64,000 nucleotides of DNA, from positions 430 to 64,429 of the forward strand of contig JAOPWU010000149.1 of assembly GCA_025965515.1 (NCBI GenBank), read 5' to 3'. Under the pieces are notes generated by a model. That model was not told the origin of the DNA and did no database searches. It saw only the letters and a program-made list of their open reading frames with translations. The position numbers and the translations under genes were made by a program. Of the stretch, positions 44,880 to 64,000 are shown piece by piece; position 1 is the stretch's first letter, and each line of letters begins with the position of its first letter. This DNA is from Mycobacterium sp. (GTDB taxonomy: Bacteria > Actinomycetota > Actinomycetes > RYN-182).

Positions 44880-44881
44880 CC

Positions 44882-46708: not shown

Positions 46709-46724
46709 CCTTCGCGAGTCGGGC

Positions 46725-47978
46725 ATGAGGCGCGCAGAGCCCCGGTACTGTGAAGATGTGACTGCCGTGGATCTCCCCGCTCAGCAGCACGGAGAGTCCA
46801 TCGCGGTCCCCGTTGAGATCGACATGGCCTACGTGCAGCGCGTCCTGCTCGAGCTGCTGCACATCCCCAGCCCCACCGGGCGCACCGACCACGTGCAGCA
46901 GTACGTCGGCGAGGAGCTGTCCCGCCTCGGCATGCAGGTCGTGATGAACCGGCGCGGCGCGATCAACGCGGTCCTCCCGGGTAGCCGCGACGGCGTGGAC
47001 CGCGCGGTCGTCGTCCACACCGACACGATCGGGTGCATCGTCAAGCGGCTCAAGGACAACGGGCGGCTCGAGGTGCGCTCCGTCGGCACGCACAGCGCCC
47101 GGTTCGCCGAGGGCGCCCGCGTGCGGATCTTCACCGACGACCTGGAAACGGTCTACTCCGGCACGGTGCTCCCGCTGAAGGCGAGCGGGCACAAGTACGA
47201 CACCCAGGTCGACACCCAGGGCGTCAGCTGGGAGCAGGTCGAGGTCCGCGTCGACGAGAAGGTGCACGACGACGCCGGGCTGCGGGAGCTGGGCATCGAC
47301 GTCGGGGACTTCGTGGCGCTGCTCAGCGAGCCGGACATCACCCCGACCGGGTACGTCAACGCGCGGCACCTCGACGACAAGGCCGGCGTGGCCGCGGCCC
47401 TCGGCGCGTTCAAGGCCGTCCTCGAGGCGGGCCTCGTCCCCCCCGTCAACGCGCACCTCCTCGTCACGTGCACCGAGGAGGTCGGGCACGGGGCGAGCGC
47501 GGGGATCGACAGCAACGTCGCGGAGATCGTCAGCCTCGACACGGCGGTCGTCGCTCCCGGGCAGCAATCCCGCGAGGACGCGGTCACCGTCGGGATGGGC
47601 GACGGCGTCGGGCCGTTCGACTACCACCTCACGCGGTACCTGACGGGCCTCGCGCGCGCCAACGGGCTGCCGCACACGCGGGACGTCTTCGACTTCTACC
47701 GGTCCGACCTGGCTGCGGCGCTCGAAGCGGGCGCCGACACCCGGGTCGCGCTGCTCGGGTTCGGCGTCGACGCGACGCACGGCTACGAGCGGACCCACCT
47801 CGACGGGCTCAACGCCCTCGCGCAGCTCGTCGCGCTCTACATCCAGTCGGACCTGGTGTTCCCGGAGTGGGACGCCACCGCCGAGGGCCGGCTGGCCGAC
47901 TTCCCGTCGCTGGCCGTGCAGCCCGCCGACGAGGAGGGGCCCCGCGAGGGCCCCATCGGCGACGTGTGGGACGACTGA
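46725..47978 (+). CDS. osmoprotectant NAGGN system M42 family peptidase
   Basis: 417 aa M42/FrvX-like aminopeptidase fold (AVVVHTDTIGCIV...LVTCTEEVGHGASAG); conserved third gene of asnO-ngg loci. Confidence 0.8.
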   Translation: MRRAEPRYCEDVTAVDLPAQQHGESIAVPVEIDMAYVQRVLLELLHIPSPTGRTDHVQQYVGEELSRLGMQVVMNRRGAINAVLPGSRDGVDRAVVVHTDTIGCIVKRLKDNGRLEVRSVGTHSARFAEGARVRIFTDDLETVYSGTVLPLKASGHKYDTQVDTQGVSWEQVEVRVDEKVHDDAGLRELGIDVGDFVALLSEPDITPTGYVNARHLDDKAGVAAALGAFKAVLEAGLVPPVNAHLLVTCTEEVGHGASAGIDSNVAEIVSLDTAVVAPGQQSREDAVTVGMGDGVGPFDYHLTRYLTGLARANGLPHTRDVFDFYRSDLAAALEAGADTRVALLGFGVDATHGYERTHLDGLNALAQLVALYIQSDLVFPEWDATAEGRLADFPSLAVQPADEEGPREGPIGDVWDD

Positions 47979-50753: not shown

Positions 50754-53529
50754 CCGCACTGACTACCCTGGAGCCGTGAAGGCTCGCACCGAGCGGGAGC
50801 GCCAACGCGAGACGATCGCCGAGGCGCTCACCGACGCGGGCCGGGTGCTGGCCGAGACGGAGCGGTTGCGGGTGGCCGGGGCGCCGCTGCTGGGGACCAG
50901 CGCGGCGCAGTCCCACGCCGACCGCCGGGAGCGCCTGGCGGACCGGCTCACCCGGCTGACGGCCGAGCGCGACCAGGCGGACCGCGACCTCGCGGCCCAG
51001 CAGGCCATCCTCGAGCTGGTGCTGGACAGGCTCCTGCCCTCCCCGTACGCCTCGGTGGCCTGGAACGACCCCCACTGGGAGGAGTGGCAGCCGCCCGAGG
51101 ACCTGCCGGACGCCGTCCGCCTCGGCACCCTGCGGCTGGACACGGCGAGCGGCGCGGTCCCCACGGTCGCCGTCTGCCCGGTCCTCGAGCACCCCACCGT
51201 GATCCTGGCGGAGGAGACGGGGTCCCTGGAGGCCGCCACCACGGCGCTGCAGGTGCTGACGGCCCGGCTCATCGCGTCCTGCCCGCCGGGGACGCTGCGG
51301 GTGTCCCTCGCCGACCTCGCCGCGTTCGGGTCGCGGCTCGGGGCCGTCGGCGGCACCGCCGCGCCGCTGCGGGTGGGGCCCACGGCGACCTCGCCGGTCC
51401 AGCTGCGCGCGATGCTGGATGAGATCGGGACGCACATGGTGCGGCTCAACACGTCCGGGGCGCTCGCGGCGGGCCCCTTGACGGACCAGGTGCGCCAGCA
51501 CCTGCCGGGCCACGAACCGCTGCGGCTCGTCGTCGCCGCCGGGCTGCCCGCCGACCTGCCGACCGACCTGTGGCGGCAGCTGGGGGCCATCGCCCGCAAC
51601 GGGCCCGCCTGCGGCGTCCACCTCGTCGTCCTGCCGGAGGTGTACGCCCGGGAGGACCGCGACAAGCTGCTGACGTTGCTCGGGGAGCACGCCGTGGTGC
51701 TGCGGGCCGCGGACGGGGAGCTGCGGCTGTCGACCTACGACGACACGCTGGGCTCGATCACCCCGTACCGGCTGTTCTCCGACGCCGCTCCGGGCCCGGT
51801 GCAGCGGGCGCTGCTCGCCGAGTCGCTGCCGCGGGCGAGCGTCGGCACGCTGCAGGCCCCCGCGCTGCTCGACATGCTCACCGACGCCCCGGAGCGCAGC
51901 TCGCGCGACGGCCTGGCGATCCCCGCGGGGCTCACCGCGGACGGCGAGATCTGGTCGCTGTTCGTCAACGACGCGGCGCCGCACGGCCTGCTCGCCGGTC
52001 AGAGCGGCTCGGGCAAGAGCACGCTGCTGCACGGCCTGGTGCAGAGCGCCAGCACGCTGTACGCCCCCGACGAGTTGCAGCTCGTGATGCTCGACCTCAA
52101 GCAGGGCGTGGAGTTCGCGGAGTACCTGCAGGACGCCACGACTCCCGAGCTGCCGCACATCCGGCTGCTCGGCATCGATGTGGATGCGTACCAGGCGCTC
52201 GAGGTGCTGCGCTGGCTCGTCGCGGAGAACAGCCGCCGGCAGCGGCTGTTCCTCGCCGCCGGCGAGCGCAGCTCCACGGCCGTCCGCAACATCTACGAGT
52301 ACCGGCGCCTCACCGGGGAGCCGCTGCCGCGGCTGCTCGCCGTCATCGACGAGTTCCAGCAGCTCTTCGCCCCCGACGTCTCCGAGGAGGCGTGGACGCA
52401 CCTGCAGACCATCGCGAAGCTGGGGCGCAGCCAGGGCATGCACCTGCTGCTCGCCACGCAGGGGCTCACGGGCATGGCGGGTGGCATCCGGGAACGCGAG
52501 CCCGTGTTCGCGCAGCTGGCGACGCGCATGGCCCTGCGGTGCCGGCCCGCGGACGCCGTCGAGGTGCTGGGGCCCGGCCGGTCCGGCTCGGTGGCCGAGC
52601 TGCGGCGGCAGGGCGAGATGATCGTGGCCGCCGCCGGCGGCGCGATGAGCGAGGACCAGCGGGTCCGGGTTGCGTTCATGGACCCGCAACAGCGGCGCCG
52701 GCTGCGCACCGAGCGGGCGCTCGCGCTGCCGCCCGCCCCGCCGGTCGACACCGTGCGGGTGATCCGCGGCGACCAGCGCGTCCAGCTCTCCGGGATGCGG
52801 GTGCTCGGGGCGGTCGGTCCCGAGGCCGTGCCGCTCGGCATGACGTGCGTGCTGCGGGAACCCGTGGCGCGGGTGGACCTGCGCCCCCGCCGGGGCCGCG
52901 GGGTCGCGCTGGTGGCGCGCTCGGCGCCGCTCGCCACGGCCGCGCTGGCGACGCCGGCCGCCGTGCTGGCCGCGGGTGACGACGGCCGGCCCGTCGTGAT
53001 CGTCGACGAGGACGGCCGGCACCTGGCGGAGCTGGAGGGGCTCCTGGAGTGGCTGGGCCCCCGCGGCCGGGTGCTGGACGACCTGCCGGCCGACGCGGCG
53101 GGCGCGGCCGCGCTGGCGGCGGCGCTGCCCGAGCCGTCGATCGTGATCCTCCTCGACGTCCGGCACCCGGATCAGTTCGGGCCCGGCACGCTGGCGGAGC
53201 TGGCGAGCGGCAAGGAGGGGCACACGGTCCTCACGTGGCTGCGGCCCGAGGCCTGGCACCAGTGCGCACGGGTGCTGCGCGACATGCAGGTCCGGCTCGG
53301 CCGCGACATGCCCGTGACCGAGCTCTCCGCGACCCTCGGCGCGCGGCCGCCGCACCCCGCGCCCGACGGCTACCTGTGGTGGACGGACCTCGGCTCCGGC
53401 CGGCCGCCGCGGCTCGTGCGGCCGGCCGTCGCGCCGACCGCCGGGTCGCTCGAGGCCGACCTCGGTATCGCCGGGGGCCGTCGGGTCATCTCGCTCGACC
53501 CCGCGTCCCCGCGCCCGGTGGCGCCCTGA
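50734..53529 (+). CDS. FtsK/SpoIIIE family P-loop ATPase (EccC/EssC-like), no predicted TM segment; one intact and flanking degenerate FtsK-like domains
   Basis: Walker A GQSGSGKSTLLHGLV; Walker B LLAVIDEFQQL; HLLLATQ; upstream region (VLEHPTVILAEETGS...HLVVLPE) looks like a degenerate FtsK domain; start at GTG 50734 or GTG 50776. Confidence 0.8.
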   Translation: MPLTWDDRTDYPGAVKARTERERQRETIAEALTDAGRVLAETERLRVAGAPLLGTSAAQSHADRRERLADRLTRLTAERDQADRDLAAQQAILELVLDRLLPSPYASVAWNDPHWEEWQPPEDLPDAVRLGTLRLDTASGAVPTVAVCPVLEHPTVILAEETGSLEAATTALQVLTARLIASCPPGTLRVSLADLAAFGSRLGAVGGTAAPLRVGPTATSPVQLRAMLDEIGTHMVRLNTSGALAAGPLTDQVRQHLPGHEPLRLVVAAGLPADLPTDLWRQLGAIARNGPACGVHLVVLPEVYAREDRDKLLTLLGEHAVVLRAADGELRLSTYDDTLGSITPYRLFSDAAPGPVQRALLAESLPRASVGTLQAPALLDMLTDAPERSSRDGLAIPAGLTADGEIWSLFVNDAAPHGLLAGQSGSGKSTLLHGLVQSASTLYAPDELQLVMLDLKQGVEFAEYLQDATTPELPHIRLLGIDVDAYQALEVLRWLVAENSRRQRLFLAAGERSSTAVRNIYEYRRLTGEPLPRLLAVIDEFQQLFAPDVSEEAWTHLQTIAKLGRSQGMHLLLATQGLTGMAGGIREREPVFAQLATRMALRCRPADAVEVLGPGRSGSVAELRRQGEMIVAAAGGAMSEDQRVRVAFMDPQQRRRLRTERALALPPAPPVDTVRVIRGDQRVQLSGMRVLGAVGPEAVPLGMTCVLREPVARVDLRPRRGRGVALVARSAPLATAALATPAAVLAAGDDGRPVVIVDEDGRHLAELEGLLEWLGPRGRVLDDLPADAAGAAALAAALPEPSIVILLDVRHPDQFGPGTLAELASGKEGHTVLTWLRPEAWHQCARVLRDMQVRLGRDMPVTELSATLGARPPHPAPDGYLWWTDLGSGRPPRLVRPAVAPTAGSLEADLGIAGGRRVISLDPASPRPVAP

Positions 53530-54233
53530 TGACCGCCGAACTGGACCGCTACCTGCGCGAGATGCACGACCTCGCGGAGGCGGCCCGGTACCGCCAGGAG
53601 GCGGACGACGAGACGTGGCAGGCCACGCTCGACGTCCACGCGGCCGTCGTGGCGGGGCCGGACCGGCCCGTCGTCGTGGTCCAGCTCGACCGGGCGGCGG
53701 ACGAGCTGCGCGGGGTGCGGGACGAGGTCTGCCGGATCGCCGGGCTGCCGCGGCCGCTGGTGACGGAGGACCCGGACGCGCCGGGGCTGCCGGGGCCCGA
53801 GGCGGGGGTGGCGCAGTGGTCCGAGCGCCTGACGCAGCAGACCCTCGCGCTCGACCGCGCCCGCGGCCGGCTGCAGGAGCTGGCCGTCGCCTGGCGGATG
53901 GACGAGCGGGACCGTGAACGCTGGGAGGGCAGGCTCGGGCTGCTGCTGGCCCGGCTGGCCGGCCTGCTGGGGCCGGCCCTGCTGGTGCCCCTGCTCCTCG
54001 ACCTGCTCCCCGGGGTCAGCCGGGGCCAGAGCTGGCTGAGCCTGGTCCTGTCCGTGCTGCTGGCGGTCGCCGCGGGGGCGGGGGTGTGGCTCCGCGCCGC
54101 CAACCGGCGGGAGTTCTGCGACCGCGCCCTGGCGCTGACCGACCCCATGGTCAAGCTGCCGCACGCGGCCATCTTGTCCCGGCTTGCTTTGGGATTCGCG
54201 CTTTGGGGGATCCCGTGGCTGGTGGTGCGCTGA
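53529..54233 (+). CDS. membrane protein translationally coupled to the FtsK-like ATPase
   Basis: TGATG overlap with upstream stop; 234 aa; N-terminal soluble helical part then 2-3 TM helices (LLLARLAGLLGPALLVPLLLDLL, SLVLSVLLAVAAGAGVWL, LALGFALWGIPWLVV). Confidence 0.55.
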   Translation: MTAELDRYLREMHDLAEAARYRQEADDETWQATLDVHAAVVAGPDRPVVVVQLDRAADELRGVRDEVCRIAGLPRPLVTEDPDAPGLPGPEAGVAQWSERLTQQTLALDRARGRLQELAVAWRMDERDRERWEGRLGLLLARLAGLLGPALLVPLLLDLLPGVSRGQSWLSLVLSVLLAVAAGAGVWLRAANRREFCDRALALTDPMVKLPHAAILSRLALGFALWGIPWLVVR

Positions 54234-54319
54234 GGGGGAGGTCACGGGTTTCGCACGGCCCGATCATTCACACCCCGGTACTGATTCACTACGGGCAGTT
54301 GCACGGAAGCGGAGGAACC

Positions 54320-54577
54320 ATGGCGATCGACGTCACGAGGCAATCGATCAGCAAGGCGCTCGAGGACGTCACCGAGGCCAAGAAGACGTTCAGCACCGCG
54401 CTCGAAACGGTCGAGGACACGGTCAAGAGCCTCGAGAGCGAGATCTCGGGCAGCGAGAACGACAACGCGAACGAATCGATCTCGCTCGCGAAGAACGCCT
54501 TGGACTCCGCCGAGGAGGTCCTCGCGAAGCTGACCCAGAGCGCGGAGTCGCTGGAGCAGTACCTCCAGGTCCTCTAG
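54320..54577 (+). CDS. small (85 aa) all-helical protein, WXG100/EsxA-like size and architecture but no WXG motif
   Basis: GGAGGAACC RBS directly before ATG; predicted helix-loop-helix; high GC3 codon usage. Confidence 0.6.
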   Translation: MAIDVTRQSISKALEDVTEAKKTFSTALETVEDTVKSLESEISGSENDNANESISLAKNALDSAEEVLAKLTQSAESLEQYLQVL

Positions 54578-54625
54578 CGCCCCCGCCGCCCTGCGGTCTG
54601 CGGCCGCGGCGATTAGGTTGCAGGT

Positions 54626-55609
54626 ATGGACTCTCGCATCCTCGGTACCCGTTCCCCCCTGACCGTCTCCGCCATCGGCCTAGGCTGCATGGGCATGTCG
54701 GAGTTCTACGGCGCCGGCTCGGATGCCGAGTCGACGGCGGTGCTGCAGCTCGCGGTCGAGCTGGGCGTCACGTTCTTCGACACCGCGGACATGTACGGCC
54801 CGTTCCGCAACGAGGAGCTCGTCGGCGCGGCCCTGCGGCCCTACCGCGACAAGGTCGTGATCGCGACGAAGTTCGGCAACCAGCGCGGCGAGGACGGCAG
54901 CTTCCTGGGCGTCAACGGCCGCCCGGAGTACGTGCACAGCGCGTGCGACGCGTCGCTGCGGCGGCTCGGCATCGACACCATCGACCTGTACTACCAGCAC
55001 CGCGTCGACCCGACCGTGCCCATCGAGGACACCGTCGGCGCCATGGCGGAGCTCGTGGCGGCGGGCAAGGTGCGCCACCTCGGCCTGTCCGAGGCGGCCC
55101 CCGAGACCATCCGCCGGGCCGCCGCCGTCCACCCGATCACCGCGCTGCAGACGGAGTACAGCCTGTGGTCGCGCGACCCGGAGGACGAGCTGCTCGCTAC
55201 CGTGCGGGAGCTCGGCATCGGCTTCGTGGCCTACAGCCCCATCGGCCGCGGGTTCCTCTCCGGCGAGATCCGCAGCATCGACGACCTGGCGCCGGACGAC
55301 TTCCGCCGCCGGAACCCCCGGTTCACCGGCGAGAACTTCCAGCGCAACCTCGACCTCGTGGACACCGTCCGGCGGCTCGCGGAGGCCAAGGGGTGCACCC
55401 CCGCGCAGCTCGCGCTGGCCTGGCTGCTGGCGCAGGGCGACGACATCGTGCCCATCCCCGGCACGAAGCGGGAGAAGTACCTGCGGGAGAACGTCGCCGC
55501 CGCGGACATCACCCTCACCCCGGAGGAGCTGGCGGCCATCGACGCCGCCGCACCGCGCGGTGCCGCCGCGGGCGACCGGTACCCGGACATGAGCGGCGTC
55601 GGGCGCTAG
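54626..55609 (+). CDS. aldo/keto reductase
   Basis: 327 aa; [13 protein letters not shown]; [18 protein letters not shown]; HLGLSEA; typical AKR. Confidence 0.9.
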
Positions 55610-57123
55610 TCCGCGGGGCGGTACACCGCCAACCGTGAGGGGGCGACGTGCAGTCGCAGGTCGCGGGGCGCGTCGCCGATCTCGCCGTCGCGGGCGAGCC
55701 GCGGGTGCCCGTTGCTCTCCTCGAGGACGAGGTCGAGCGACCCTCGCAGCCGCTGCTCGTACACCCGTGACCGGCCGAGCCGGCCGGTCAGGACGGCGAG
55801 CGCCAGGCGCGTGCGGGCGAGGCGCACGTCGGCGCGCACCAGCCGGACGTCGATGACGTCGTCGTCGAGCCGCGGCCGCCAGGACGGGGCGAAGCCGGCC
55901 GGCCGGTAGGGGCCGTTGCCGGCGAACAGCAGCCACAGCAACCGCGGCTCGCCGTCGAGCCGCACCGCGATGGGGTGGCCGTGCCGCAGCACGCCCGGCA
56001 GCGCCGCGGCGAGGGCGGGCCACTTGCCGAGCCGGTCCTCGCGCCGTTCCCGCCCCGCCACCAGCTCGGGGTAGACCCCGACGCTGAGCGTGTTCAGGAA
56101 GACCAGCTCCTGCTCCGGGTCGACGGCGTCGTCGGCGGCGCGGCCGACGGTGCAGGCGGCGGCGGTGCCCTCCCGCACCGCCCGCGCCACGTCCTCGACG
56201 CCGGTGATGCAGAGTTCGGCGGCGAAGTGGTTGAGGGTTCCGGCGGGCACGACCACCAGCGGCAGCCCCGCCCGCAGCGCGACCGCCGCCGCTGCGTTCA
56301 CGCTGCCGTCGCCGCCCGCGATGCCCAGGACGCGCGCCTCCCGGGCCGCCTCGCGCAGGGCCGGCCGCAGGTCGCCCTCGACCAGCCGGGCCTCCGCCTT
56401 CGGCAGCTCGGCGAGCAGCGCGTCGACCATCGCCCGGGCACTGCCGTCACCGCTGTCGGCGTTGCCGACGACGATCAGCCCCTCGCCGTCGGGGAGCGCC
56501 GGGACGGTCGCCCGCGCCGCCGCGGCCCGTTCGCCGTGCGGCCGCGCCGGCCACCGCGACCGCACGAAGAGGGCGCAGCCGACCCCGAGCGCCAGACCCG
56601 CCGCGACGTCACCCGGGTAGTGGACGCCGACGTGGACGCGGCCGTAGGCGACGCCCGCCACGACCGGTGCGAGCGCCAGGCCCAGCGCCGGCCGCTCCAG
56701 CGCGACGCCGAGGGTGAAGGCCGCGGCCGACGCGGCGTGCCCGCTGGGGAAGCTGGACGAGGAGGGCACCCGGCGGAGCTGCCGGAGCTGCGGCACCCCG
56801 GCCACGCCCGGCCGGTCGCGGCGGGCCGTGAGCTTCCCGGGCAGGTTGGCCGCGAAGCTCGCGACGCCGAGGCTGACCAGGCCCCGCGTCGCGGCGCGGC
56901 GCTGCCCCGCGGCGGCGAGCGCAGCGGCGGTCACGGCCCAGAGCCCCGCGTGGTTCGCGCTGGTGGTGAGCGGCGGCAGGACGGCGTCGAACAGCGGGCT
57001 CTCGCGCCGGGCCGCGGCGGCGAACAGGGTCCGGTCCGTCCGGTCCAGCCGGTCGACGAGCCGCCGGGCGGGGGAACGGCGGTGGGGGACGAGGGGCGCG
57101 AGGGGCCGGCGGCGAGCGATCAC
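55606..57123 (-). CDS. bifunctional PAP2 phosphatase / diacylglycerol kinase catalytic-domain fusion protein
   Basis: N-terminal PAP2 motifs ([20 protein letters not shown]); C-terminal DAGK_cat (IAGGDGSVN). Confidence 0.8.
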
Positions 57124-57471
57124 CGCCGGGAGCTACCCGAGCGGGCGGTGGCCGAGACCCGCCGTGCGGGTGACGCAGCGTGCCGCCCCGGACGTGATGG
57201 TGGCGTGCGCCGATGCAGGCGGGACGGCGGCCATGCCCGCGGGCCGCCGGACCGGTTTCGCCGCGCGGTCGCTTCCACGGTTGATGGACCCGGCGCGACG
57301 GACCCGTCATCCGTGGAGTTGCACTGCCACCGCATGACCGAAGACGGGCGGGGCGCGGCTTGCCAGGCTCGTCGCAGCTCCCTTGGAGGAGCTATCGCAC
57401 CGAGCAACACGCACCGCTCACGCCGGGTGGCGATCCGCCACCCCGGTCATCAACCCAGGAAGGAGACACGC

Positions 57472-57636
57472 ATGTCGCACGAAGCCACAGGCGTCGCCGA
57501 GTCCGAGCTGCTGACGATCGAGGACCTAAGCATCGAGGAGCTCGACGACGTGGCCGCGGCCGACTGTGCCGGAACGGCCAGCACGGCAAGCACCCCCGTC
57601 AGTACGGCCGCCTGCATCGGCTGCGCCAGCTTCTAG
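57472..57636 (+). CDS. RiPP precursor peptide A (54 aa; double-Gly-type leader plus Cys/Ser/Thr-rich core)
   Basis: AGGAGA RBS; MSHEATGVAESELLTIEDLSIEELDDVAAA-DCAGTASTASTPVSTAACIGCASF; clustered with C39-ABC, P450 and TOMM docking protein. Confidence 0.6.
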   Translation: MSHEATGVAESELLTIEDLSIEELDDVAAADCAGTASTASTPVSTAACIGCASF

Positions 57637-57678
57637 ACCCGTCGAGCTCGCCGGACGAACTCCTGAAAGGACGCACTC

Positions 57679-57843
57679 ATGACGCACGACACCACACCCG
57701 AGCAGCACGTCGACGGCCTCGAGATGGACGAACTGGCGATCGAGGAGCTGACCGAGCTGAGCGGCGCTGCCAGTGCCAGCACGGCCGGGACCGTCAGCAC
57801 CCCCGCAACCGTCGGCACGGCCGCGTGCCTCAGCTGCTTCTGA
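57679..57843 (+). CDS. RiPP precursor peptide B (54 aa; paralogue of A)
   Basis: GAAAGGA RBS; MTHDTTPEQHVDGLEMDELAIEELTELSGA-ASASTAGTVSTPATVGTAACLSCF; same length and shared IEEL leader and STP / AAC..C..F core features. Confidence 0.6.
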   Translation: MTHDTTPEQHVDGLEMDELAIEELTELSGAASASTAGTVSTPATVGTAACLSCF

Positions 57844-57945
57844 TCCCGAGGACGCCCAGCACGGCCGCGTGACACGGCGGCCGTCGGCGCCCTGGCCGCG
57901 CGTCGGGCGCCGGCGGCCACCGCTCGTGACGACAGGGAGGACCCC

Positions 57946-59208
57946 GTGGACGATCTCGCCGCTTCGGCGGTCCGCTTCATCACGGATCCGCACTCGCAAC
58001 AGGTGGGTGACCTGACCATGTTCGCCCGACTGGCCGTGGAGAAGCCGGTGCTGAAGGCCGGCCCGGTGTGGATCGTGTCCCGGCACGACCTGGTCTGCGC
58101 CCTGGCTCGGCACCCGGCCTGTGTCGTCCGTCTTCCGGACCGCTGGCGCCACGCCCCACCACTGAACCCGTCCGTCTCCCGGCTCCTCGAGGGACTCCTC
58201 CCTGTCCTGCCGACCCCCGATCACCGTCGGCTCCGACGCCTGCTCGCCGGGCAGTTCAGCGCGCGGTCCGTAGAACGGCTGCGGGGGGCGGTCGTGCGCA
58301 TCGTCACCGAACTGCTCGCAGGACCGCTGCGCCGAGGCTCGTGCGATTTCGTGAAGGACGTCTGTCTACCCCTGCCCGTCTACACGACCGCGGCCCTGCT
58401 CGGATTGCCGGACGCGGACCGAGGCCAGCTGCTGGCCTGGGCCCAGGCGGTCAACGGCATGGTCCTCGCCGAAGTGACCGGCCGCGTCGGCGGAGCTGGC
58501 GGGGGGCCTCGGAATCCGGGCGTGGACCGCCTCGGCGAACTGGTGGCGTACATCGAGGAACTCGTACGGCGCAGGACCGCGGACCCGGGCGACGACCTGA
58601 TCTCCCGGTTGGCGGCGGAAACAGCCACCGAGGACGGGCACCTTGACCACGACGAGTTGGTCTCCACGGTGCTGCTGCTGTTGATGACGGGTATCGATAC
58701 GGTCGGTAGCGGCTTGGCCAACGTGGTGACCGTGCTGGGGCGCAACAGAGAGGCCTGGGCCCTGGTCGTGGCGGACCCGTCGCGAGCAGGCGCGGCATAC
58801 CAGGAAGCGCTGCGGCTCCTCCCGCCGCTGCCCGTCATGAGCCGCATCACCGAGGCGGATGTCGAGGTCGCCGGACTCACCATCCCCGCTGCCAGCACCG
58901 TGCTGTTGGTCTACGGCGCGGCCAACCTGGACCCCCGAGTCTTCCCGGAGCCCTGCAGTTTCGACCTCGCCCGGCTGCCGACCGGTCAGCTTGCCTTCGG
59001 GCACGGTCCGCACCACTGTCTGGGTGCGAGCCTGGCAGTGCTCCAGGGGGAGGTGGTGCTCGCGGCGCTGGCCCGCTCGGCCCCGTGGTTCCACGTGGGA
59101 GCCGGTCCACGCCGCCGCCGCGACGAACTGGCGTTCCACTCGCCCGCCGAGCTGCCGTTGTGGCTGCGGGCCGAGCCTCCCGGATGCCGTCGACAGGTGT
59201 CCGCATGA
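57946..59208 (+). CDS. cytochrome P450
   Basis: 420 aa; heme-binding FGHGPHHCLGASLA; ExxR (EALR); GTG start with GGGAGG RBS. Confidence 0.85.
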   Translation: MDDLAASAVRFITDPHSQQVGDLTMFARLAVEKPVLKAGPVWIVSRHDLVCALARHPACVVRLPDRWRHAPPLNPSVSRLLEGLLPVLPTPDHRRLRRLLAGQFSARSVERLRGAVVRIVTELLAGPLRRGSCDFVKDVCLPLPVYTTAALLGLPDADRGQLLAWAQAVNGMVLAEVTGRVGGAGGGPRNPGVDRLGELVAYIEELVRRRTADPGDDLISRLAAETATEDGHLDHDELVSTVLLLLMTGIDTVGSGLANVVTVLGRNREAWALVVADPSRAGAAYQEALRLLPPLPVMSRITEADVEVAGLTIPAASTVLLVYGAANLDPRVFPEPCSFDLARLPTGQLAFGHGPHHCLGASLAVLQGEVVLAALARSAPWFHVGAGPRRRRDELAFHSPAELPLWLRAEPPGCRRQVSA

Positions 59209-62200
59209 GGCTGCCTGCGGCGGTGCCGTCGCGAGCAGGCACGGCGACGCCGATCGTCCGTCAGGTCGAGGACGCCGACTGCGGGCCCACCTGCCTCAGC
59301 ATCCTCCTGGCACACCACGGCATCCACGTCCCGTCCGCCACGGTGCGCGCACAGTGTGGGGCGTCCCGCGACGGGTCGACCGCGGCGGACCTTACGCGCG
59401 TGGGCCGGCTCCACGGGGTGGAGATCCGTGGCATCCGTCTGACGGGGGTCGCCGCGGGGCGCGATGACAGCCTCGCAGCAGTGCTGTCGACGGTGCGACG
59501 GCTGCCACTGCCCGCGATCGCGCTGCTCGGCGATAGCCACTTCGTCGTCCTGGAAGCCGTCCGACGGGGCGACCGGGTAGAGCTCAACGATCCCGCCCGT
59601 GGTCGCACCGCCCTCTCGGGACCAGATTTTGTGGCCGCGTTCAGCGGTGTCCTGCTCACGGCCACGGCCACGGCCGCCACCGCCACCGGACTGCAGGGCC
59701 ACACCCCGAGGCGCCACCAGGGCGAGTGGGTGCGCGTCTGCGCGGGCTGGCTCGCGCCCGTGCGCGGTCCGGTCGTGCTGTCGGCCGGTATGGCGTTGGG
59801 CGTGGGCTGCTGTGCAGCGGGCTGCCTCGCCGTCCTGCAGCAGGTCGCCCGCGCGCGGACCGACGGACGCAGCGGCACCGCGGCTGTCGTGCCTGCAGCC
59901 GCTTTGCTGCTCACCCTGCTCGCCGCGTCGCTCGGGTACGCACGACGGCGCCTTGTCACCAGCAGCACCGCGCGCCTGGCTGCTGGGCGCTCGCGGGAGC
60001 TGCTCGACCGGCTGCTGCTGCTGCCGGCCTCCTTCACGGATCGACGCTCCGCGGCGACCCTGCTGGTGCAGGTCCGCTTTGCCGGAACGGCGGGGACCCT
60101 GCTCGCCCTCAAGGTTGCAGCGCTGGTTGGCGCGGTGGCGTTCCTGGTGCCCGTGGTGGTTCTGGTCGGGGTCGTGGCACCGACCCTGCTGGTCGTGGCG
60201 GGGGTGGGGGGCGGTGCCGCGTGGTTGCTTCGGCGCACGGGGGACCGCCGGACGGCGGCCCCGTCGCGGCTCGTCGCGGGAGACCTCGCCCGGCGCTCCG
60301 CGACGGCACGCGTGGCGCTCGCCCGGGGGATCACCCTGCACGCGGACGGATCGGCGGACGACCTGCGCGCCGAGTTGGCCGAGGAGGGCCGACGCGATGT
60401 CCGCACCCGCCGCGAGCTGGCAGTGGGACAGGGTCCGTGGCGGGCGGCCGCTGCGGCGGTGGAGGTCGTCACGCTCGCCGCAGCGGGGTCCCAGGTCGTG
60501 GCCGGGGAGGCCCCCACGATCGGCTTGATCCTGGCCGTCCCGCTGCTGCTGGTGCACGTCCGCGAGGTGGGCGGCCTGCTAGGGGAATTGCCGGACTTCA
60601 CCGCCCGGCTGGAGGTGCTGGACGACATATGCGGCGCCGAGCCCGAGCCGCAGCCCGGCCGGGGACCCGGCGCACCGGACGACGGCAGGCTGCGCGGACG
60701 GGTCGAGCTGCTCGGTCTCACATTCGGATACAGCTCCCGCCGCACCCTGGTCGGCCCGGTCAGCAGCCGCATCGAACCGGGTCGTCGTGCGGTCGTTGTG
60801 GCGCCTCCCGGCGGCGGCGGCTCGACCCTCGTACGGCTGCTGCTCGGGGCCTTGCGGCCGACGGCAGGAGCGGTATTGCTGGACGGCGTCCCGGTGCACG
60901 AGGTCCCCCGGGCTGTGCTGCGACGTTCGGTCGGTTACGTCGCGCAACGGCCCGCGTTCTTCCCGGCGACGGTGCACGAGAACGTCACCATGTTCGACAC
61001 CTCGGTCCGACCGGAGCAGGTACAGGCGACATTGCGGGCGGTCGGCCTCGCGGACGTCGTCGATCGTCGCGGTGGCGCGCTCGTGGCCCGGGTCGCGCCC
61101 GGCGCAGCCAACTTCTCGGAAGGGGAGCGTCGGCTCCTCGCCCTGGCGCGCGCGCTGGTGCGGGACCCCTCCCTCCTGCTGCTGGACGAGCCGGTCGGCA
61201 CGTCCGACGGGGCCCTGGCCCGACGGATCGACGGACTGCTGCGTTCCCGCCGGGTCACCACCGTCCTTGTGACCCGGCGACCCGACCTCATCGGGCCGGA
61301 TGACACCGCCCTTGTCCTGCGCGACGGGCGGTTCGTCCCGTCCGCGGACCGCGGGCCCGGCTGGGACGGCGTGCCCAGCGCCCCGTCACGAGCGCTGCAC
61401 GGTGAGCCCGGCGGACGGCCGTCGATCGCCGCGCCCGAGGTGCCCGAGGTGGTCGGCGGCGACCCCGTTCCTGGCGTGGCGGCGGGGGCAGCGGCGTCGT
61501 GGGAAGGGTGTCGCCGCCGCGTGGCAGCTCGCGGCGCCGTCGCCCTTGCCATGACGGGCGTCGTCGGCGCCCTGGTCTGTGCCCTGCCGGTGGCTGCCGC
61601 CGAGACGGCCCGCACTGCCGGACCCGCCGTGCTCGCGGTGGTCGCCGGGGCAGCCATCGCCCTGACGGGCTTACTCCGGGTCCGCGGGTCCGCGGCCGAG
61701 GCGATTGAGGCGGCGCTGCAGCAGGTCGTGGAGCCGGCGATCTGGGCGCGGCTGCTGGCCCCGCGTGCGCGCCGGTGGCTCCTGTCGGCGCCGGACGCGC
61801 TGGTCCGCACCGGTAGCTGCATCTCCCGCTTGCGGTCGCTGACTGCCCCGGCCGCACTGGACGCGGCGGACGGCGCGGCGGTCCTGCTGATCGCCGTCCT
61901 GGCGTTGGTGGCGACGCATCAGGACGCTGGTCTCGCTGGGGCGACCGTGGTGGTCCTGCTCGTGGGGGCATCGGTGGTCGTCGCCGCCCGGGCCCCGTCC
62001 CTCCCAGACGGGGCGGATGCGGCCGAAGCCCTGCTCCGGGCCGTGCCCGGCGGGCTCGACGAGATCCACCTCGGGATCGCCGAGGAGGCGGTCGCGGCTC
62101 GCGTCACCGGCCCGGTGTGCGCTGGGACAGCAGCGCGGGGGACGTCCGCGGCCCACAGCGAAGCCCTGCTGGGCGCATTCGCGGCGTCGCTCTTCCCGGC

Positions 62201-63221
62201 GCTCGTGACAGCTGTTGCCGCTGCGGTGTGGTGGCGGTCGACACCGGCTTCCGGTCTCCTCACCGGATGCCTGCTGCTGGCGCCGGTCCTATTGGTGGTG
62301 GCCCGGTGTGACGCCGTGGTGCGATCCGTCGGCATCGTCGGCCGTGGTCTGGTGCGTGAGGCCCGCGACGTGGTCGCGTCCGCAGCGCCGCCCACCGCCC
62401 CGGCGATGGCTGTGTCGGGCCCGCAGGCCCGTCGGGTCGGCGGGGCGCCGGGGACGGCCGTCGACCTCTGCGGCGTCTCGCTGCGCTACGCGACCCCCGG
62501 ACTGGCTGCGCCAGGGCTCCCCGCCGTGGCTGAGGTGACGCTGACGGTGGCCCCCGGCGAGTTCGTCGTGCTGGTGGGCGCGTCGGGGGCAGGTGCCTCC
62601 TCCCTCCTCCGGCTCCTGGCAGGTCTGGAGGAACCGGACAGCGGGATCGTGCTGCACGACGGGACGCCGCTTACCGCGCCGGGCGTTTCTTCGGTCCGCC
62701 CCGGCACCGCCCTGCTCGTGCAGGACGCCGACGTGCCACGGGGAACCGTCCGATCGGTGCTCCTCGGCCACGGCGGCTCGGCGGCACCTCAGGACGCAGT
62801 TGCCTGGGCGCTGCTGCGTGCGGTCGGTCTCGAGGACGAGATCCGGGGACTGCCCATGGGTCTGGCGACCGTGGTCCCCAGCGGGTCAGGGGGTTTCGCC
62901 GCCGGACAGCTGCGGCGGTTGGCACTGGCCCGGGCGCTGCGACGTGGCACGCGACTGCTGCTGCTGGACCAGCCGGTCGCGCCCGCCGATCCGGACATCG
63001 GCCGGCTGGCCACCGTGCTGCGCGACCGGCGGGGCACGACGCGCGTCGTCGCCACGGCGGCCCCCGAGCTCGCGTGGGCCGCTGATCGGGTCGTGGTGCT
63101 GTCCGGGGGGAGGGTCGCCCAGGAGGGACGCCCGGATCACCTCCTGCGGACCGGAGGTCCCTGCGGCCGGCTGTTCCCGGATGACCTGTGCCTCACCCGC
63201 CCGCGTTTCCGACAGACCTGA
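59205..63221 (+). CDS. C39 peptidase-domain fused double ABC transporter (two TMD-NBD halves), both NBDs with degenerate Walker A/H-loop
   Basis: ATGA overlap with P450 stop; N-terminal C39 (EDADCGPTCLSILLAHHG); two ABC signature/Walker B regions (FSEGERRLLALARAL + LLLLDEPVG; GGFAAGQLRRLALARAL + LLLLDQPVA); Walker A positions read APPGGGGSTL and GASGAGASSL with no Lys. Confidence 0.8.
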   Translation: MRLPAAVPSRAGTATPIVRQVEDADCGPTCLSILLAHHGIHVPSATVRAQCGASRDGSTAADLTRVGRLHGVEIRGIRLTGVAAGRDDSLAAVLSTVRRLPLPAIALLGDSHFVVLEAVRRGDRVELNDPARGRTALSGPDFVAAFSGVLLTATATAATATGLQGHTPRRHQGEWVRVCAGWLAPVRGPVVLSAGMALGVGCCAAGCLAVLQQVARARTDGRSGTAAVVPAAALLLTLLAASLGYARRRLVTSSTARLAAGRSRELLDRLLLLPASFTDRRSAATLLVQVRFAGTAGTLLALKVAALVGAVAFLVPVVVLVGVVAPTLLVVAGVGGGAAWLLRRTGDRRTAAPSRLVAGDLARRSATARVALARGITLHADGSADDLRAELAEEGRRDVRTRRELAVGQGPWRAAAAAVEVVTLAAAGSQVVAGEAPTIGLILAVPLLLVHVREVGGLLGELPDFTARLEVLDDICGAEPEPQPGRGPGAPDDGRLRGRVELLGLTFGYSSRRTLVGPVSSRIEPGRRAVVVAPPGGGGSTLVRLLLGALRPTAGAVLLDGVPVHEVPRAVLRRSVGYVAQRPAFFPATVHENVTMFDTSVRPEQVQATLRAVGLADVVDRRGGALVARVAPGAANFSEGERRLLALARALVRDPSLLLLDEPVGTSDGALARRIDGLLRSRRVTTVLVTRRPDLIGPDDTALVLRDGRFVPSADRGPGWDGVPSAPSRALHGEPGGRPSIAAPEVPEVVGGDPVPGVAAGAAASWEGCRRRVAARGAVALAMTGVVGALVCALPVAAAETARTAGPAVLAVVAGAAIALTGLLRVRGSAAEAIEAALQQVVEPAIWARLLAPRARRWLLSAPDALVRTGSCISRLRSLTAPAALDAADGAAVLLIAVLALVATHQDAGLAGATVVVLLVGASVVVAARAPSLPDGADAAEALLRAVPGGLDEIHLGIAEEAVAARVTGPVCAGTAARGTSAAHSEALLGAFAASLFPALVTAVAAAVWWRSTPASGLLTGCLLLAPVLLVVARCDAVVRSVGIVGRGLVREARDVVASAAPPTAPAMAVSGPQARRVGGAPGTAVDLCGVSLRYATPGLAAPGLPAVAEVTLTVAPGEFVVLVGASGAGASSLLRLLAGLEEPDSGIVLHDGTPLTAPGVSSVRPGTALLVQDADVPRGTVRSVLLGHGGSAAPQDAVAWALLRAVGLEDEIRGLPMGLATVVPSGSGGFAAGQLRRLALARALRRGTRLLLLDQPVAPADPDIGRLATVLRDRRGTTRVVATAAPELAWAADRVVVLSGGRVAQEGRPDHLLRTGGPCGRLFPDDLCLTRPRFRQT

Positions 63222-63230
63222 GAGGGACCC

Positions 63231-64000
63231 ATGGGCAAAGTCGTTCGCTTCAAGCGCAGCTCTCGCGCAGACGTCGTGGCCGGCGACGGCGTGTACCTGA
63301 CGTCCGAGCGGTCGGGCCAGTACCGGCTGCAGGGTCGCCTCGTCGAGCGGCTGGCGCCGCTGCTCGACGGCGCCCGCAGCCGGGCGGAGGTCGCCGCGGC
63401 CCTGGCCGCCGAGTACCCGGCGGCCCGCGTCGATGCGGTCCTGGACACGCTCGTCGAGGCGGGGCACGTCGTGGACGTTGCGGCCGAGGTAGACCACCGT
63501 GCGGCTGGCTTCTGGGAGATGCACGGCCTGGGCGGCGACGCGGCGCTGAGTGCGGTGGGGGTCGGCTCAGTGGAGTTGGTCCGGCTGGGGGACGTGGACA
63601 CCGTTGGCTTTCGGGAGGCCGCGCAGGAGGCCGGTCTGAGTGTGCGTGGCGCCACCGGTGATCCTGCCGCGCTGACGGTCGTCCTCGTGGACGACTACCT
63701 CAACCCCGAATTGCAAGCCTTCAACGAGCGGGCGCTCGGCGCGGGCCGTGCCTGGCTCCTCGCGAAGCCGATCGGCGGGATGGTCTGGGCGGGCCCGGTC
63801 TTCGAGCCTGGCCGCACCGCGTGCTGGTTCTGCCTGGCTGCACGGCTGAGCTCCAACCAGATGGTCATGACCTACCTGAAGCAGCGGAACGGGTTGGCCT
63901 CGCCGCCGGTCACCGCCCTGGCCGATCTGCCCGCGACGCGAGCGATCGGCGCCCGGCTCGCGGCGTTGCAGGCCGCGTCGTGGTTCGCCGGTGCGCTGGA
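63231..64000 (+). CDS. TOMM-type cyclodehydratase docking/scaffold (E1-like, leader-peptide-binding) protein, 5' portion (truncated by window end)
   Basis: GAGAGGG RBS; N-terminus DGVYLTSERSGQYRLQGRLVERLAPLLDGARSRAEVAAALA matches the remembered TIGR03882 bacteriocin cyclodehydratase domain start (...vfLlserg..vlrGrly..l.plLDGtrt..ei...l). Confidence 0.6.
   Translation, partial: MGKVVRFKRSSRADVVAGDGVYLTSERSGQYRLQGRLVERLAPLLDGARSRAEVAAALAAEYPAARVDAVLDTLVEAGHVVDVAAEVDHRAAGFWEMHGLGGDAALSAVGVGSVELVRLGDVDTVGFREAAQEAGLSVRGATGDPAALTVVLVDDYLNPELQAFNERALGAGRAWLLAKPIGGMVWAGPVFEPGRTACWFCLAARLSSNQMVMTYLKQRNGLASPPVTALADLPATRAIGARLAALQAASWFAGAL

What the first reader, a model, noticed from the sequence alone, without database searches (positions are those of the whole stretch)
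57472..57843. Paralogous precursor pair with double-Gly-type leaders and identical-length 24-aa cores
Leaders contain LSIEELDDVAAA and LAIEELTELSGA, which fit the C39 double-glycine cleavage consensus (ELxx(V/L)xG(A/G)). Predicted cores are DCAGTASTASTPVSTAACIGCASF and ASASTAGTVSTPATVGTAACLSCF. Both are 24 aa, rich in Ser, Thr and Cys, and share a central STP and a C-terminal AAC-x-x-C..F. This suggests a two-component product or tandem-duplicated variants. The leaders (about 30 aa) are far shorter than NHLP/Nif11 leaders usually paired with such C39-ABC fusions.
Basis: seen in the sequence. Interest (0 to 1): 0.7.

Follow-up and report, generated by a model that had tools for sequence, protein, structure and literature searches.

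The report
Twin goadsporin-type precursor peptide genes
Two adjacent 54-codon genes encode the starting peptides of an uncharacterised goadsporin-like natural product (azole rings plus dehydro-amino acids); their 30-residue leaders are built to be cut off by the neighbouring protease-exporter, so this is a real, conserved gene pair of a broadly familiar kind.

Summary
Window 57472-57636 (A1) and 57679-57843 (A2) are two real, paralogous 54-aa genes. Each has a 30-aa leader ending in a double-glycine-type site and a 24-aa Ser/Thr/Cys-rich core.

They open an operon: A1, A2, P450, C39-peptidase/ABC exporter, RRE-YcaO heterocyclase (cut by the window end). In a 99.5%-identical contig and in relatives it continues with a SagB/ThcOx dehydrogenase, a GodF-like split-LanB glutamylase, one elimination-domain protein, an ABC-2 transporter and a two-component regulator.

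The A1/A2 pair, P450 and C39-ABC recur in seven loci, four of them from named genera. A1 and A2 are separate orthologue groups under purifying selection.

The goadsporin precursor GodA aligns in register (IEEL at -10 to -7, GA at -2/-1). Its experimentally known leader/core boundary falls exactly on the predicted cut. No pyridine synthase is present, so NCBI's label 'thiocillin family RiPP' overstates: these are goadsporin-type linear azole/dehydro-amino-acid peptides, not thiopeptides.

The short leader is normal for this family, and the equal core length is incidental (21-25 aa in relatives). What is new is a conserved twin-precursor, P450-containing variant with no known product.

The parts
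57472..57636 (+). A1 precursor gene (54 aa). Leader is residues 1-30, ending LSIEELDDVAAA. Core is DCAGTASTASTPVSTAACIGCASF.
   Evidence: ORF and RBS. NF033482 33.8 bits against a cut-off of 25. A1-type orthologues in 6 other loci. dN/dS 0.07-0.23 against orthologues.
57679..57843 (+). A2 precursor gene (54 aa). Leader is residues 1-30, ending LAIEELTELSGA. Core is ASASTAGTVSTPATVGTAACLSCF.
   Evidence: ORF and RBS. NF033482 26.0 bits against a cut-off of 25. The exact protein was called on 11 contigs. Aligns with GodA, E 6e-5. dN/dS 0.10-0.37.
57875..57922 (+). GC-rich stem-loop (18-nt arms, 89% complementary) between A2 and the P450 gene. Probably a leaky terminator or mRNA-stabilising hairpin that sets the precursor:enzyme ratio.
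   Evidence: Inverted repeat. All 6 loci examined have a 12-18-bp hairpin at this position with unrelated sequences. Fold z-scores are -2.5 to -7.5 in the five relatives but not significant in the window (z -0.77 at 81% GC). There is no T-tract. The function is inferred.
57946..59208 (+). Cytochrome P450 (420 aa); tailoring enzyme, substrate position unknown.
   Evidence: PF00067 E 1e-20. Closest solved structures are generic CYP107-type hydroxylases. It directly follows A2 in all seven loci.
59205..63221 (+). C39 peptidase-ABC exporter, here one 1338-aa polypeptide (C39-TMD-NBD-TMD-NBD). ATGA overlap with the P450 stop codon.
   Evidence: PF03412 E 1e-23 and two ABC_tran domains. Resembles TIGR03796 plus TIGR03797 but below both cut-offs. 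The C39 domain is closest to LahT150 (6mpz, E 7e-16), with the Gln, Cys, His and Asp positions occupied. Start and stop read directly.
63231..64000 (+). N-terminal 256 aa (winged-helix/PqqD-like RRE and start of the E1-like domain) of a 765-aa fused YcaO heterocyclase; truncated by the window end.
   Evidence: PF21084/PF05402 weak hits. The full-length protein in L001 (99.5% identical DNA) has PF02624 E 1e-99, TIGR03604 and TIGR03882. It matches LynD, TruD and MusD at E 1e-173 to 1e-189.

Best explanation
A1 and A2 are the two structural genes of a goadsporin-type RiPP operon. The product would be a linear peptide carrying azoles and dehydro-amino acids.

Proposed pathway:
1. Both peptides are translated with a 30-residue acidic, helical leader containing (I/V)(E/D)(D/E)L-x-(I/V)EEL-x-(D/E)-(V/L)-x-(G/A)-A.
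2. The leader recruits the RRE of the fused E1-like/YcaO heterocyclase. This enzyme converts Cys and some Ser/Thr of the core to azolines.
3. The SagB/ThcOx-type FMN dehydrogenase oxidises the azolines to azoles.
4. A GodF-like glutamyl-tRNA-dependent glutamylase and a GodG-like elimination protein convert remaining Ser/Thr to Dha/Dhb. By analogy with goadsporin these are chiefly the Ser of the recurrent S-T dipeptides that precede an azole.
5. The P450 adds an oxidative modification at an unknown position.
6. The C39-ABC exporter cuts after Ala-Ala-Ala (A1) and Ser-Gly-Ala (A2) during export. This releases two different 24-residue products.
7. In relatives, a downstream ABC-2 transporter and a HisKA_3/LuxR pair probably give immunity and regulation.

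What is shown: the genes, their homologies, the conserved synteny, purifying selection, and the alignment to the experimentally defined GodA boundary.

What is inferred: every chemical step, which residues are modified, the order of steps, and the activity of the products.
For: Precursors
- NF033482 above cut-off.
- A family of 33 representatives at 50% identity, most ending the leader in an EEL-type motif followed by xG(G/A), many with an STP-containing S/T/C/G/A core.
- GodA (30-aa leader, 19-aa core) aligns with IEEL at -10..-7 and GA at -2/-1.
- GodA's best six-frame match in the whole 64-kb window is A2 (E 0.002), then A1.

Enzymes
- The C39 domain has Gln/Cys/His/Asp in place.
- The YcaO fusion is LynD-like.
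- The dehydrogenase matches TIGR03605 at E 2e-49.
- The LanB_N family profile hits PDB 9jhq 'Goadsporin biosynthetic protein' at E 1e-170, against thiomuracin TbtB at 1e-36. The fragment from the window's own species hits 9jhq at 1.6e-19.
- The single PF14028 protein matches the elimination domains of MibB and NisB.

Synteny and selection
- A1-A2-P450-C39ABC(-ABC)-YcaO-dehydrogenase-LanB_N is seen in the Mycobacterium-labelled MAG, Amycolatopsis (two species), Rhodococcus, Kitasatospora and two metagenome contigs.
- A1 and A2 form separate orthologue groups: 59-83% identity within a type, 44-50% between types.
- dN/dS is well below 1.
Against: - No product has been observed for any member, so all chemistry is by analogy.
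- The window itself ends inside the YcaO gene. The dehydrogenase and LanB_N are seen only in a 99.5%-identical contig (L001). The elimination protein, ABC-2 transporter and regulators are seen only in relatives.
- Pfam does not detect Lant_dehydr_N in some family members at E<0.01. The assignment rests on the PDB profile hit.
- A1 has Ala at -2, which is unusual for C39 substrates.
- GodA itself scores only 10 bits on NF033482, so precursor homology to GodA is weak (38% over 34 residues).
- The goadsporin acetyltransferase GodH was not seen in these clusters. The Ffh-type immunity gene GodI, as I recall it from the goadsporin literature, was also not seen. The end product and target are therefore likely to differ.
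Confidence: 0.8

Rival explanations
1. They are thiopeptide precursors, as the NCBI label 'thiocillin family RiPP' implies. Two Dha residues would be joined by a [4+2] pyridine synthase, which also ejects the leader. The GA/AA site would then not be a protease site.
For: Both peptides pass the NF033482 cut-off. The cluster has the azole and split-LanB machinery that thiopeptides also use. The PF14028 protein matches TIGR03891, 'thiopeptide-type bacteriocin biosynthesis protein'.
Against: - Thiopeptide clusters need two PF14028-type proteins, an eliminase and a pyridine synthase. The three complete relatives have only one.
- That one protein's profile matches the elimination domains of MibB and NisB best. 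Its only other PF14028-type hit is weak: TsrE at E 0.0095.
- Without an eliminase no Dha would form.
- The LanB_N is far closer to the goadsporin enzyme than to TbtB (1e-170 against 1e-36).
- A catalytically intact C39 exporter is conserved.
- The leader aligns with GodA's at its known cleavage site.
Confidence: 0.06
2. They are lanthipeptide-like precursors. Dha/Dhb made by the split LanB would be attacked by the core Cys residues to give thioether rings, with the YcaO playing a minor role.
For: The cores carry 2-3 Cys together with many Ser/Thr. LanB-type dehydration genes are present. The leader is of the double-Gly type used by class II lanthipeptides. One family member gives a weak lacticin-481-family hit, E 0.004 and below cut-off.
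Against: No LanC or other cyclase domain was found in any of the clusters. A full LynD-type heterocyclase plus azoline dehydrogenase is conserved, and such enzymes typically act on Cys first. Some orthologues have lost core Cys residues, for example Kitasatospora A1 with no Cys, yet keep the Ser/Thr pattern.
Confidence: 0.05
3. The two ORFs are chance reading frames in GC-rich DNA, or untranslated remnants.
For: High-GC DNA produces many long spurious ORFs; 21 ORFs overlap this 1.3-kb stretch. There is no expression data.
Against: - RBS and codon-position GC pattern.
- Conservation as a pair in seven loci, four of them from named genera, with synonymous changes dominating: 10-15 synonymous against 3.5-6.5 nonsynonymous differences between the window and Amycolatopsis sp. 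NBC_01480.
- Curated HMM hits.
- Fixed position at the head of a RiPP operon.
Confidence: 0.01

Closest known systems
Goadsporin (god cluster, Streptomyces sp. TP-A0584: GodA, GodB, GodD, GodE, GodF, GodG)
   Same: - 30-aa leader with IEEL at -10..-7 and GA at -2/-1, then a small S/T/C-rich uncharged core.
- ABC transporter with an N-terminal peptidase domain, presumed to remove the leader.
- Fused heterocyclase, FMN dehydrogenase, and a split LanB (GodF-like, E 1e-170 to PDB 9jhq).
- No pyridine synthase.
   Different: - Two conserved paralogous precursors instead of one.
- 21-25-aa cores with an invariant STP and TAAC, unrelated in detail to ATVSTILCSGGTLSSAGCV.
- A conserved P450.
- No GodH-type acetyltransferase in the conserved block, and no Ffh-type immunity gene. 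An ABC-2 transporter plus a HisKA_3/LuxR pair stand there instead.
- The exporter is a heterodimeric pair, or a fusion in the window.
Thiocillin-type thiopeptide precursors (NCBIfam NF033482)
   Same: The curated HMM is matched above its cut-off. Relatives are already named 'thiocillin family RiPP' in GenBank. Azole plus Dha chemistry is shared.
   Different: There is no second PF14028 ([4+2]) enzyme. The cores are longer. A C39 exporter is present for leader removal.
Double-glycine leader / PCAT systems (LahT, PCAT1, ComA; NHLP/Nif11 with NHLM_micro_ABC1/2)
   Same: Hydrophobic residues at -4, -7 and -12, Glu at -8 and small residues at -2/-1. The C39 domain is closest to LahT150 with catalytic residues conserved (recognition rule from PMC10885120). 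The ABC pair resembles TIGR03796/TIGR03797.
   Different: ABC scores are far below those equivalog cut-offs (422 against 853, and 265 against 709). The leaders are 30 aa and unrelated to NHLP/Nif11 domains. A1 uses Ala-Ala at -2/-1.
Cyanobactin heterocyclases LynD/TruD/PatD
   Same: The YcaO fusion (RRE, E1-like and YcaO domains, 765 aa) aligns end to end at E 1e-173 to 1e-189.
   Different: There are no PatA/PatG proteases or macrocyclisation. The precursor architecture is different.
Dehydrazoles (carnazolamide; PMC10676384)
   Same: Linear peptides that combine azoles with Ser dehydration; dehydration occurs next to azoles.
   Different: Dehydrazoles use a LanM-type DUF4135 dehydratase. This system uses a tRNA-dependent split LanB.
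Two-peptide lantibiotics (lacticin 3147, haloduracin), recalled from general knowledge
   Same: Two divergent precursors encoded side by side with double-Gly leaders and one C39-ABC exporter.
   Different: Those use LanM enzymes, usually one per peptide, and thioether rings. Here a single enzyme set would serve both peptides. Synergy is untested.

Membership tests
Goadsporin-type linear azole/dehydro-amino-acid peptide (LAP with split LanB) | Short precursor with a ~30-aa leader homologous to GodA's and a Ser/Thr/Cys-rich core | tested here: met
   GodA against A2: BLASTP E 6e-5, same register, same leader length. Cores are 38-48% S+T+C, as in GodA at 47%.
Goadsporin-type linear azole/dehydro-amino-acid peptide (LAP with split LanB) | Fused E1-like/YcaO cyclodehydratase plus FMN azoline dehydrogenase | tested here: met
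   The window holds the N-terminal 256 aa. The full proteins in L001 (99.5% identical DNA) match TIGR03604, TIGR03882 and TIGR03605, and LynD at E 3e-189.
Goadsporin-type linear azole/dehydro-amino-acid peptide (LAP with split LanB) | Split LanB: a stand-alone glutamylation protein (GodF-like) and a stand-alone elimination protein (GodG-like) | tested here: met
   GodF-like: family profile against PDB 9jhq, E 1e-170; L001 fragment, E 1.6e-19. Elimination protein: one PF14028 gene in L016, L017 and L019. Its profile matches the MibB and NisB elimination domains. The elimination gene was not visible for the window's own genome.
Goadsporin-type linear azole/dehydro-amino-acid peptide (LAP with split LanB) | ABC transporter with an N-terminal peptidase domain for leader removal (GodB-like) | tested here: met
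   PF03412 plus ABC_tran at window 59205-63221. Catalytic Gln/Cys/His/Asp are aligned to LahT150 and PCAT1. GodB description from PMC5303826.
Goadsporin-type linear azole/dehydro-amino-acid peptide (LAP with split LanB) | N-terminal acetylation (GodH GNAT) and Ffh-type self-resistance (GodI) | tested here: not met
   No GNAT or SRP54-family gene lies in the conserved block of L016, L017 or L019. These are tailoring and immunity features of goadsporin itself, not of the scaffold chemistry. The role of GodI is from my recollection of the goadsporin literature.
Goadsporin-type linear azole/dehydro-amino-acid peptide (LAP with split LanB) | Mature product actually contains azoles and Dha/Dhb and is linear | not testable with these tools
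   Needs MS/NMR of the product.
Thiopeptide | Dedicated [4+2] pyridine/dehydropiperidine synthase (a second PF14028-type protein) giving a six-membered N-heterocycle | tested here: not met
   Only one PF14028 gene is present per cluster in three complete relatives. It resembles elimination domains. Downstream DNA of the window's own genome could not be fetched.
Thiopeptide | Precursor matches the curated thiocillin-family HMM NF033482 | tested here: met
   33.8 and 26.0 bits against a cut-off of 25. The match covers both leader and core.
Double-glycine (C39/PCAT) leader peptide | Hydrophobic residues at -4, -7 and -12, Glu at -8, Gly-Gly/Gly-Ala/Gly-Ser at -2/-1 | tested here: met
   A2 fits fully: L-12, E-8, L-7, L-4, G-2, A-1. 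A1 fits except Ala at -2; its orthologue in L019 has Gly-Gly there. Most of the 33 family representatives have G(G/A).
Double-glycine (C39/PCAT) leader peptide | Cognate C39 peptidase domain with catalytic Cys/His and an oxyanion Gln | tested here: met
   Alignment to 6mpz and 4ry2 shows Q..DCG, HFVV and NDP conserved. A C39-ABC lies next to the pair in all seven loci.
Double-glycine (C39/PCAT) leader peptide | Actual cleavage at the predicted bond | not testable with these tools
   Supported only by alignment to GodA, whose boundary is known from the natural product.
NHLP / Nif11 leader RiPPs | Long (~70-90 aa) nitrile-hydratase-like or Nif11-like leader domain | tested here: not met
   The leaders are 30 aa. 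There are no NHLP or Nif11 hits in NCBIfam. The ABC proteins score below the NHLM_micro_ABC1/2 cut-offs.
Class I lanthipeptide | LanC-type cyclase accompanying LanB | tested here: not met
   No LanC-like domain was found in the gene tables of L016, L017 or L019.

The most novel reading that the evidence does not exclude
The conserved A1/A2 pair encodes an obligate two-peptide azole/dehydro-amino-acid antibiotic. Two different goadsporin-like peptides would be matured by one enzyme set, oxidised by a dedicated P450, and would act only together, by analogy with two-peptide lantibiotics. To my knowledge this would be the first two-component member of the linear azole-containing peptides. Its immunity genes (ABC-2 transporter plus a two-component regulator rather than an Ffh paralogue) suggest a target different from goadsporin's.
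Probability: 0.25. Interest if true: 0.6.

Novelty: new variant of a known kind. Interest (0 to 1): 0.4.

Why it matters
Goadsporin is, as far as I know, the main characterised RiPP that combines azoles with tRNA-dependent Ser dehydration in a linear peptide. It is also a tool compound for waking silent metabolism in streptomycetes.

This locus belongs to a small family, about 33 precursor clusters at 50% identity. The family is spread over Amycolatopsis, Rhodococcus, Kitasatospora and uncultured soil actinobacteria. It keeps the goadsporin enzyme core but always carries two diverged precursors and a P450, and no product is known.

It gives a concrete target for heterologous expression. It offers a natural test of how one heterocyclase/dehydratase set handles two cores. 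It also shows that the database label 'thiocillin family RiPP' should not be read as 'thiopeptide'.

It does not overturn any principle of RiPP biosynthesis.

Tried and rejected
- Two scans of genome contigs with LanB_N fragments confirmed no relative. The downstream part of the window's own cluster therefore could not be fetched.
- Exact-sequence look-ups of P0010 and P0014 found nothing.
- A single-sequence PDB search with the 261-aa PF14028 protein gave only noise. A three-sequence profile was needed.
- Pfam and NCBIfam gave no hit for several LanB_N homologues.
- The sigma-70 promoter and T-tract terminator scan of 57050-58050 found nothing.
- The fold z-score of the window's own A2-P450 spacer is not significant. 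The hairpin claim rests on positional conservation in relatives.
- Literature searches for this cluster, for 'thiocillin family RiPP' and for Amycolatopsis benzoatilytica RiPPs found no description. One search was wasted on 'GodF' matching 'Godfrey'.
- Dehydrazoles were considered and rejected because they use a LanM-type dehydratase.
- Upstream genes (PAP2-DAGK, aldo-keto reductase) were rejected as cluster members because relatives have unrelated genes there.
- The P450 comparison with solved structures gave only generic CYP107-type hydroxylases and says nothing about its substrate residue.

Full report
**1. Observation**

- A1 (57472-57636): MSHEATGVAESELLTIEDLSIEELDDVAAADCAGTASTASTPVSTAACIGCASF
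- A2 (57679-57843): MTHDTTPEQHVDGLEMDELAIEELTELSGAASASTAGTVSTPATVGTAACLSCF

Each starts with ATG 6-8 nt after a purine-rich Shine-Dalgarno-like element. GC by codon position is 0.60/0.56/0.87 for A1 and 0.62/0.56/0.89 for A2, the pattern expected of genuine genes in this 72-78% GC DNA. They are 43-46% identical (BLASTP E 3e-11). There is no third copy in the window.

With the cut placed after AAA or SGA, both leaders are 30 aa and both cores are 24 aa. The leaders carry L(-12), E(-8), L(-7), V/L(-4) and small residues at -2/-1. A review read (PMC10885120) gives hydrophobic residues at -4, -7 and -12 as the LahT recognition rule.

**2. Not chance, and translated**

A profile of A1 plus A2 found a small family. 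It includes proteins already named 'thiocillin family RiPP' in Amycolatopsis benzoatilytica and a Rhodococcus MAG, and an exact copy of A1 from a MAG labelled Mycobacterium sp..

Both window peptides pass the curated cut-off of NCBIfam NF033482: 33.8 and 26.0 bits against 25.

An exhaustive profile search of 1.84 billion cluster representatives found 33 family representatives. Most end the leader in an EEL-type motif followed by xG(G/A), and many have an S/T/C/G/A-rich core with a central STP.

Over the gap-free IEEL..TAAC stretch, dN/dS ranges from 0.0 to 0.56 between orthologues, and from 0.07 to 0.37 for every comparison involving the window. The window and Amycolatopsis sp. NBC_01480 differ by 10-15 synonymous against 3.5-6.5 nonsynonymous changes.

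**3. Surroundings in the window**

Downstream, on the same strand:
- a P450 (57946-59208);
- a C39-peptidase/ABC protein with two nucleotide-binding domains (59205-63221, ATGA overlap with the P450 stop);
- from 63231, the winged-helix/PqqD-like N-terminus of a protein cut by the window end.

Contig L001 (GCA_025965665.1) is 99.5% identical to the window over 11.1 kb. It shows that the truncated gene is a 765-aa RRE/E1-like/YcaO fusion. That gene is followed by a 522-aa ThcOx/SagB dehydrogenase and an 847-aa protein.

The YcaO fusion aligns end to end with the cyanobactin heterocyclases LynD, TruD and MusD (E 1e-173 to 1e-189).

The C39 domain is closest to LahT150 (6mpz, E 7e-16). In the alignments to LahT150 and PCAT1, the oxyanion Gln, the Cys of DCG, the His of HFVV and the Asp of NDP are all present.

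**4. Relatives**

The order A1-A2-P450-C39ABC(-second ABC)-YcaO-dehydrogenase-LanB_N recurs in:
- Kitasatospora sp. NPDC056531 (L011);
- A. benzoatilytica (L014);
- a Rhodococcus MAG (L015/L016);
- Amycolatopsis sp. NBC_01480 (L017);
- a JGI soil contig (L019).

A more distant ENA contig (L021) shows A1-A2-P450-C39ABC before it ends.

Where the contig continues (L016, L017, L019), the block goes on with:
- one 261-294-aa PF14028 protein;
- an ABC-2 ATPase and permease;
- a HisKA_3 kinase;
- a LuxR-type regulator in the kinase-adjacent position (a response regulator in L016 and L017; in L019 the nearby LuxR-family gene lies on the opposite strand);
- in two of them, a small conserved 48-51-aa ORF.

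Genes upstream of A1 differ in every genome, so A1 marks the left edge of the cluster.

Each cluster has exactly one A1-type and one A2-type peptide. Identity is 59-83% within a type and 44-50% between types. The duplication is therefore old and both copies are retained.

Core lengths are 21-25 aa, so the equal length in the window is incidental. In L019 the A1 orthologue reads EELDEVSGG|DQCAGT, with a canonical Gly-Gly at the column where the window has Ala-Ala.

**5. Which RiPP class**

The 780-860-aa proteins after the dehydrogenase are weak or silent in Pfam. A profile of six of them hits PDB 9jhq, 'Goadsporin biosynthetic protein', at E 1.2e-170. The next hit is the thiomuracin glutamylase TbtB at 1e-36. 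The fragment from the window's own species hits 9jhq at 1.6e-19.

Only one PF14028 protein is present per cluster. Its profile best matches the elimination domains of MibB, another full-length LanB, and NisB. Its only other PF14028-type hit is weak: TsrE at E 0.0095. A split LanB cannot make Dha without an eliminase, and no second PF14028 gene exists, so there is no pyridine synthase. The thiopeptide reading suggested by the NCBIfam name therefore fails its defining test, at least in the relatives.

The goadsporin paper (PMC5303826) describes the same gene logic:
- GodA with a 30-aa leader and a 19-aa core;
- GodB, an ABC transporter with an N-terminal peptidase domain presumed to remove the leader;
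- GodD/GodE for azoles;
- GodF/GodG as a split LanB.

Its supplement gives GodA as MENVQTLAIDDIENIDAEVTIEELSSTNGA|ATVSTILCSGGTLSSAGCV. GodA aligns with A2 in register: EVTIEELSSTNGA|ATVST against ELAIEELTELSGA|ASAST (E 6e-5). In a six-frame search of the whole window, GodA's best hit is A2 and its second best is A1.

The GodA boundary is fixed by the structure of the natural product. This is the strongest available support for the predicted cut sites and 24-aa cores.

**6. Mechanism (inferred by homology)**

1. The leader recruits the heterocyclase RRE.
2. Cys and some Ser/Thr become azolines, then azoles.
3. The GodF-like and GodG-like pair dehydrates remaining Ser/Thr. In goadsporin, Dha forms at a Ser immediately preceding an azole (S4-T5 and S14-S15). 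The window cores are rich in exactly such S-T dipeptides (AST-AST-P, VST), so Dha-methyloxazole units are the likeliest outcome.
4. The P450 (generic CYP107-like) adds an unknown oxidation.
5. The C39-ABC cuts and exports.

A GC-rich hairpin lies between A2 and the P450 gene in all six loci examined. The sequences are unrelated and the fold is significant in the five relatives. This is the arrangement expected of a leaky terminator or stabiliser that keeps precursor mRNA in excess. In the window (57875-57922) the stem is present but not distinguishable from shuffles at 81% GC.

**7. Differences from goadsporin**

- Twin precursors.
- A conserved P450.
- No GNAT acetyltransferase in the block, and no Ffh-type resistance gene (the role of GodI is from my recollection of the literature).
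- An ABC-2 transporter with a two-component regulator in their place.
- A heterodimeric exporter, fused into one 1338-aa chain in the window's species.

These differences point to a different final structure and probably a different target. Whether the two peptides act together cannot be decided computationally.

**8. Novelty**

I found no paper describing this cluster family or a product. The precursor family is nevertheless already captured by a curated NCBI model, and every enzyme has a well-understood homologue.

I rate it a new variant of a known kind. It is a sound genome-mining lead but not a surprise to a RiPP specialist. The supposedly odd short leader is the family norm.

Noticed in passing
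window 59205-63221: The C39-ABC exporter is a single 1338-aa polypeptide with two ABC_tran domains in the window; the 99.5%-identical L001 and L002 carry the same fusion as a 1341-aa gene. In Amycolatopsis, Rhodococcus, Kitasatospora and L019 the same function is split into two adjacent genes, most of them overlapping (C39-ABC of 654-729 aa plus a second ABC of 494-673 aa). This looks like a gene fusion of a heterodimeric PCAT.
   Followed up: partly
L016 16909-17064; L017 16847-16993: A small ORF (51 and 48 aa) directly after the response regulator is conserved between the Rhodococcus and Amycolatopsis clusters. The shared motif is PL..VIG(T/S)(Q/K)G.GGW(I/F)G followed by a basic tail. It has no family hit. 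It could be a signalling or immunity peptide of the cluster.
   Followed up: partly
window 57472-64000 versus 50722-57132: Cluster genes have third-position GC of 0.82-0.89, whereas flanking genes (FtsK-like, aldo-keto reductase, PAP2-DAGK) have 0.97. The cluster has unrelated neighbours in every genus, and an integrase fragment lies beside it in Kitasatospora (L011 8648-9160). Together these suggest horizontal transfer.
   Followed up: partly
window 1-~20000: The first ~20 kb is markedly less GC-rich (63-68% against 72-79%). Its first ~18 kb carries a same-strand catabolic block: 2-oxoacid dehydrogenase E1alpha, E1beta, E2 and E3, a DAO-type oxidase, a branched-chain amino-acid ABC importer, an Old-Yellow-Enzyme-type reductase and an acyl-CoA dehydrogenase. 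It is possibly an acquired island.
   Followed up: partly
window 43086-47978: Asparagine synthase (597 aa), a GNAT/ATP-grasp (RimK-like) fusion (629 aa) and an M42 aminopeptidase lie in a row on the + strand. This may be a small amino-acid-ligase pathway. It is unrelated to the RiPP cluster, because it is not conserved next to the cluster in relatives.
   Followed up: no
window 55606-57123 (-): A fusion of a PAP2 phosphatase domain with a diacylglycerol-kinase catalytic domain (505 aa) is divergently oriented from A1. The 348-nt spacer between them should hold the precursor promoter, but no sigma-70 consensus was found.
   Followed up: partly
P0001 / L001 source records: The exact A1 protein is deposited as 'MAG: Mycobacterium sp. 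JWM48_1974'. The local GC content (72-79%) is well above what I would expect for Mycobacterium, so the taxonomic label of that MAG is doubtful.
   Followed up: no
NCBIfam NF033482 / NF033629: The model named 'thiocillin family RiPP' captures these non-thiopeptide precursors above its cut-off, yet scores the characterised relative GodA at only 10 bits. All family members also hit 'RiPP_CPAC' (NF033629) well below its cut-off. Automatic annotation of this family will therefore be misleading about product class.
   Followed up: yes
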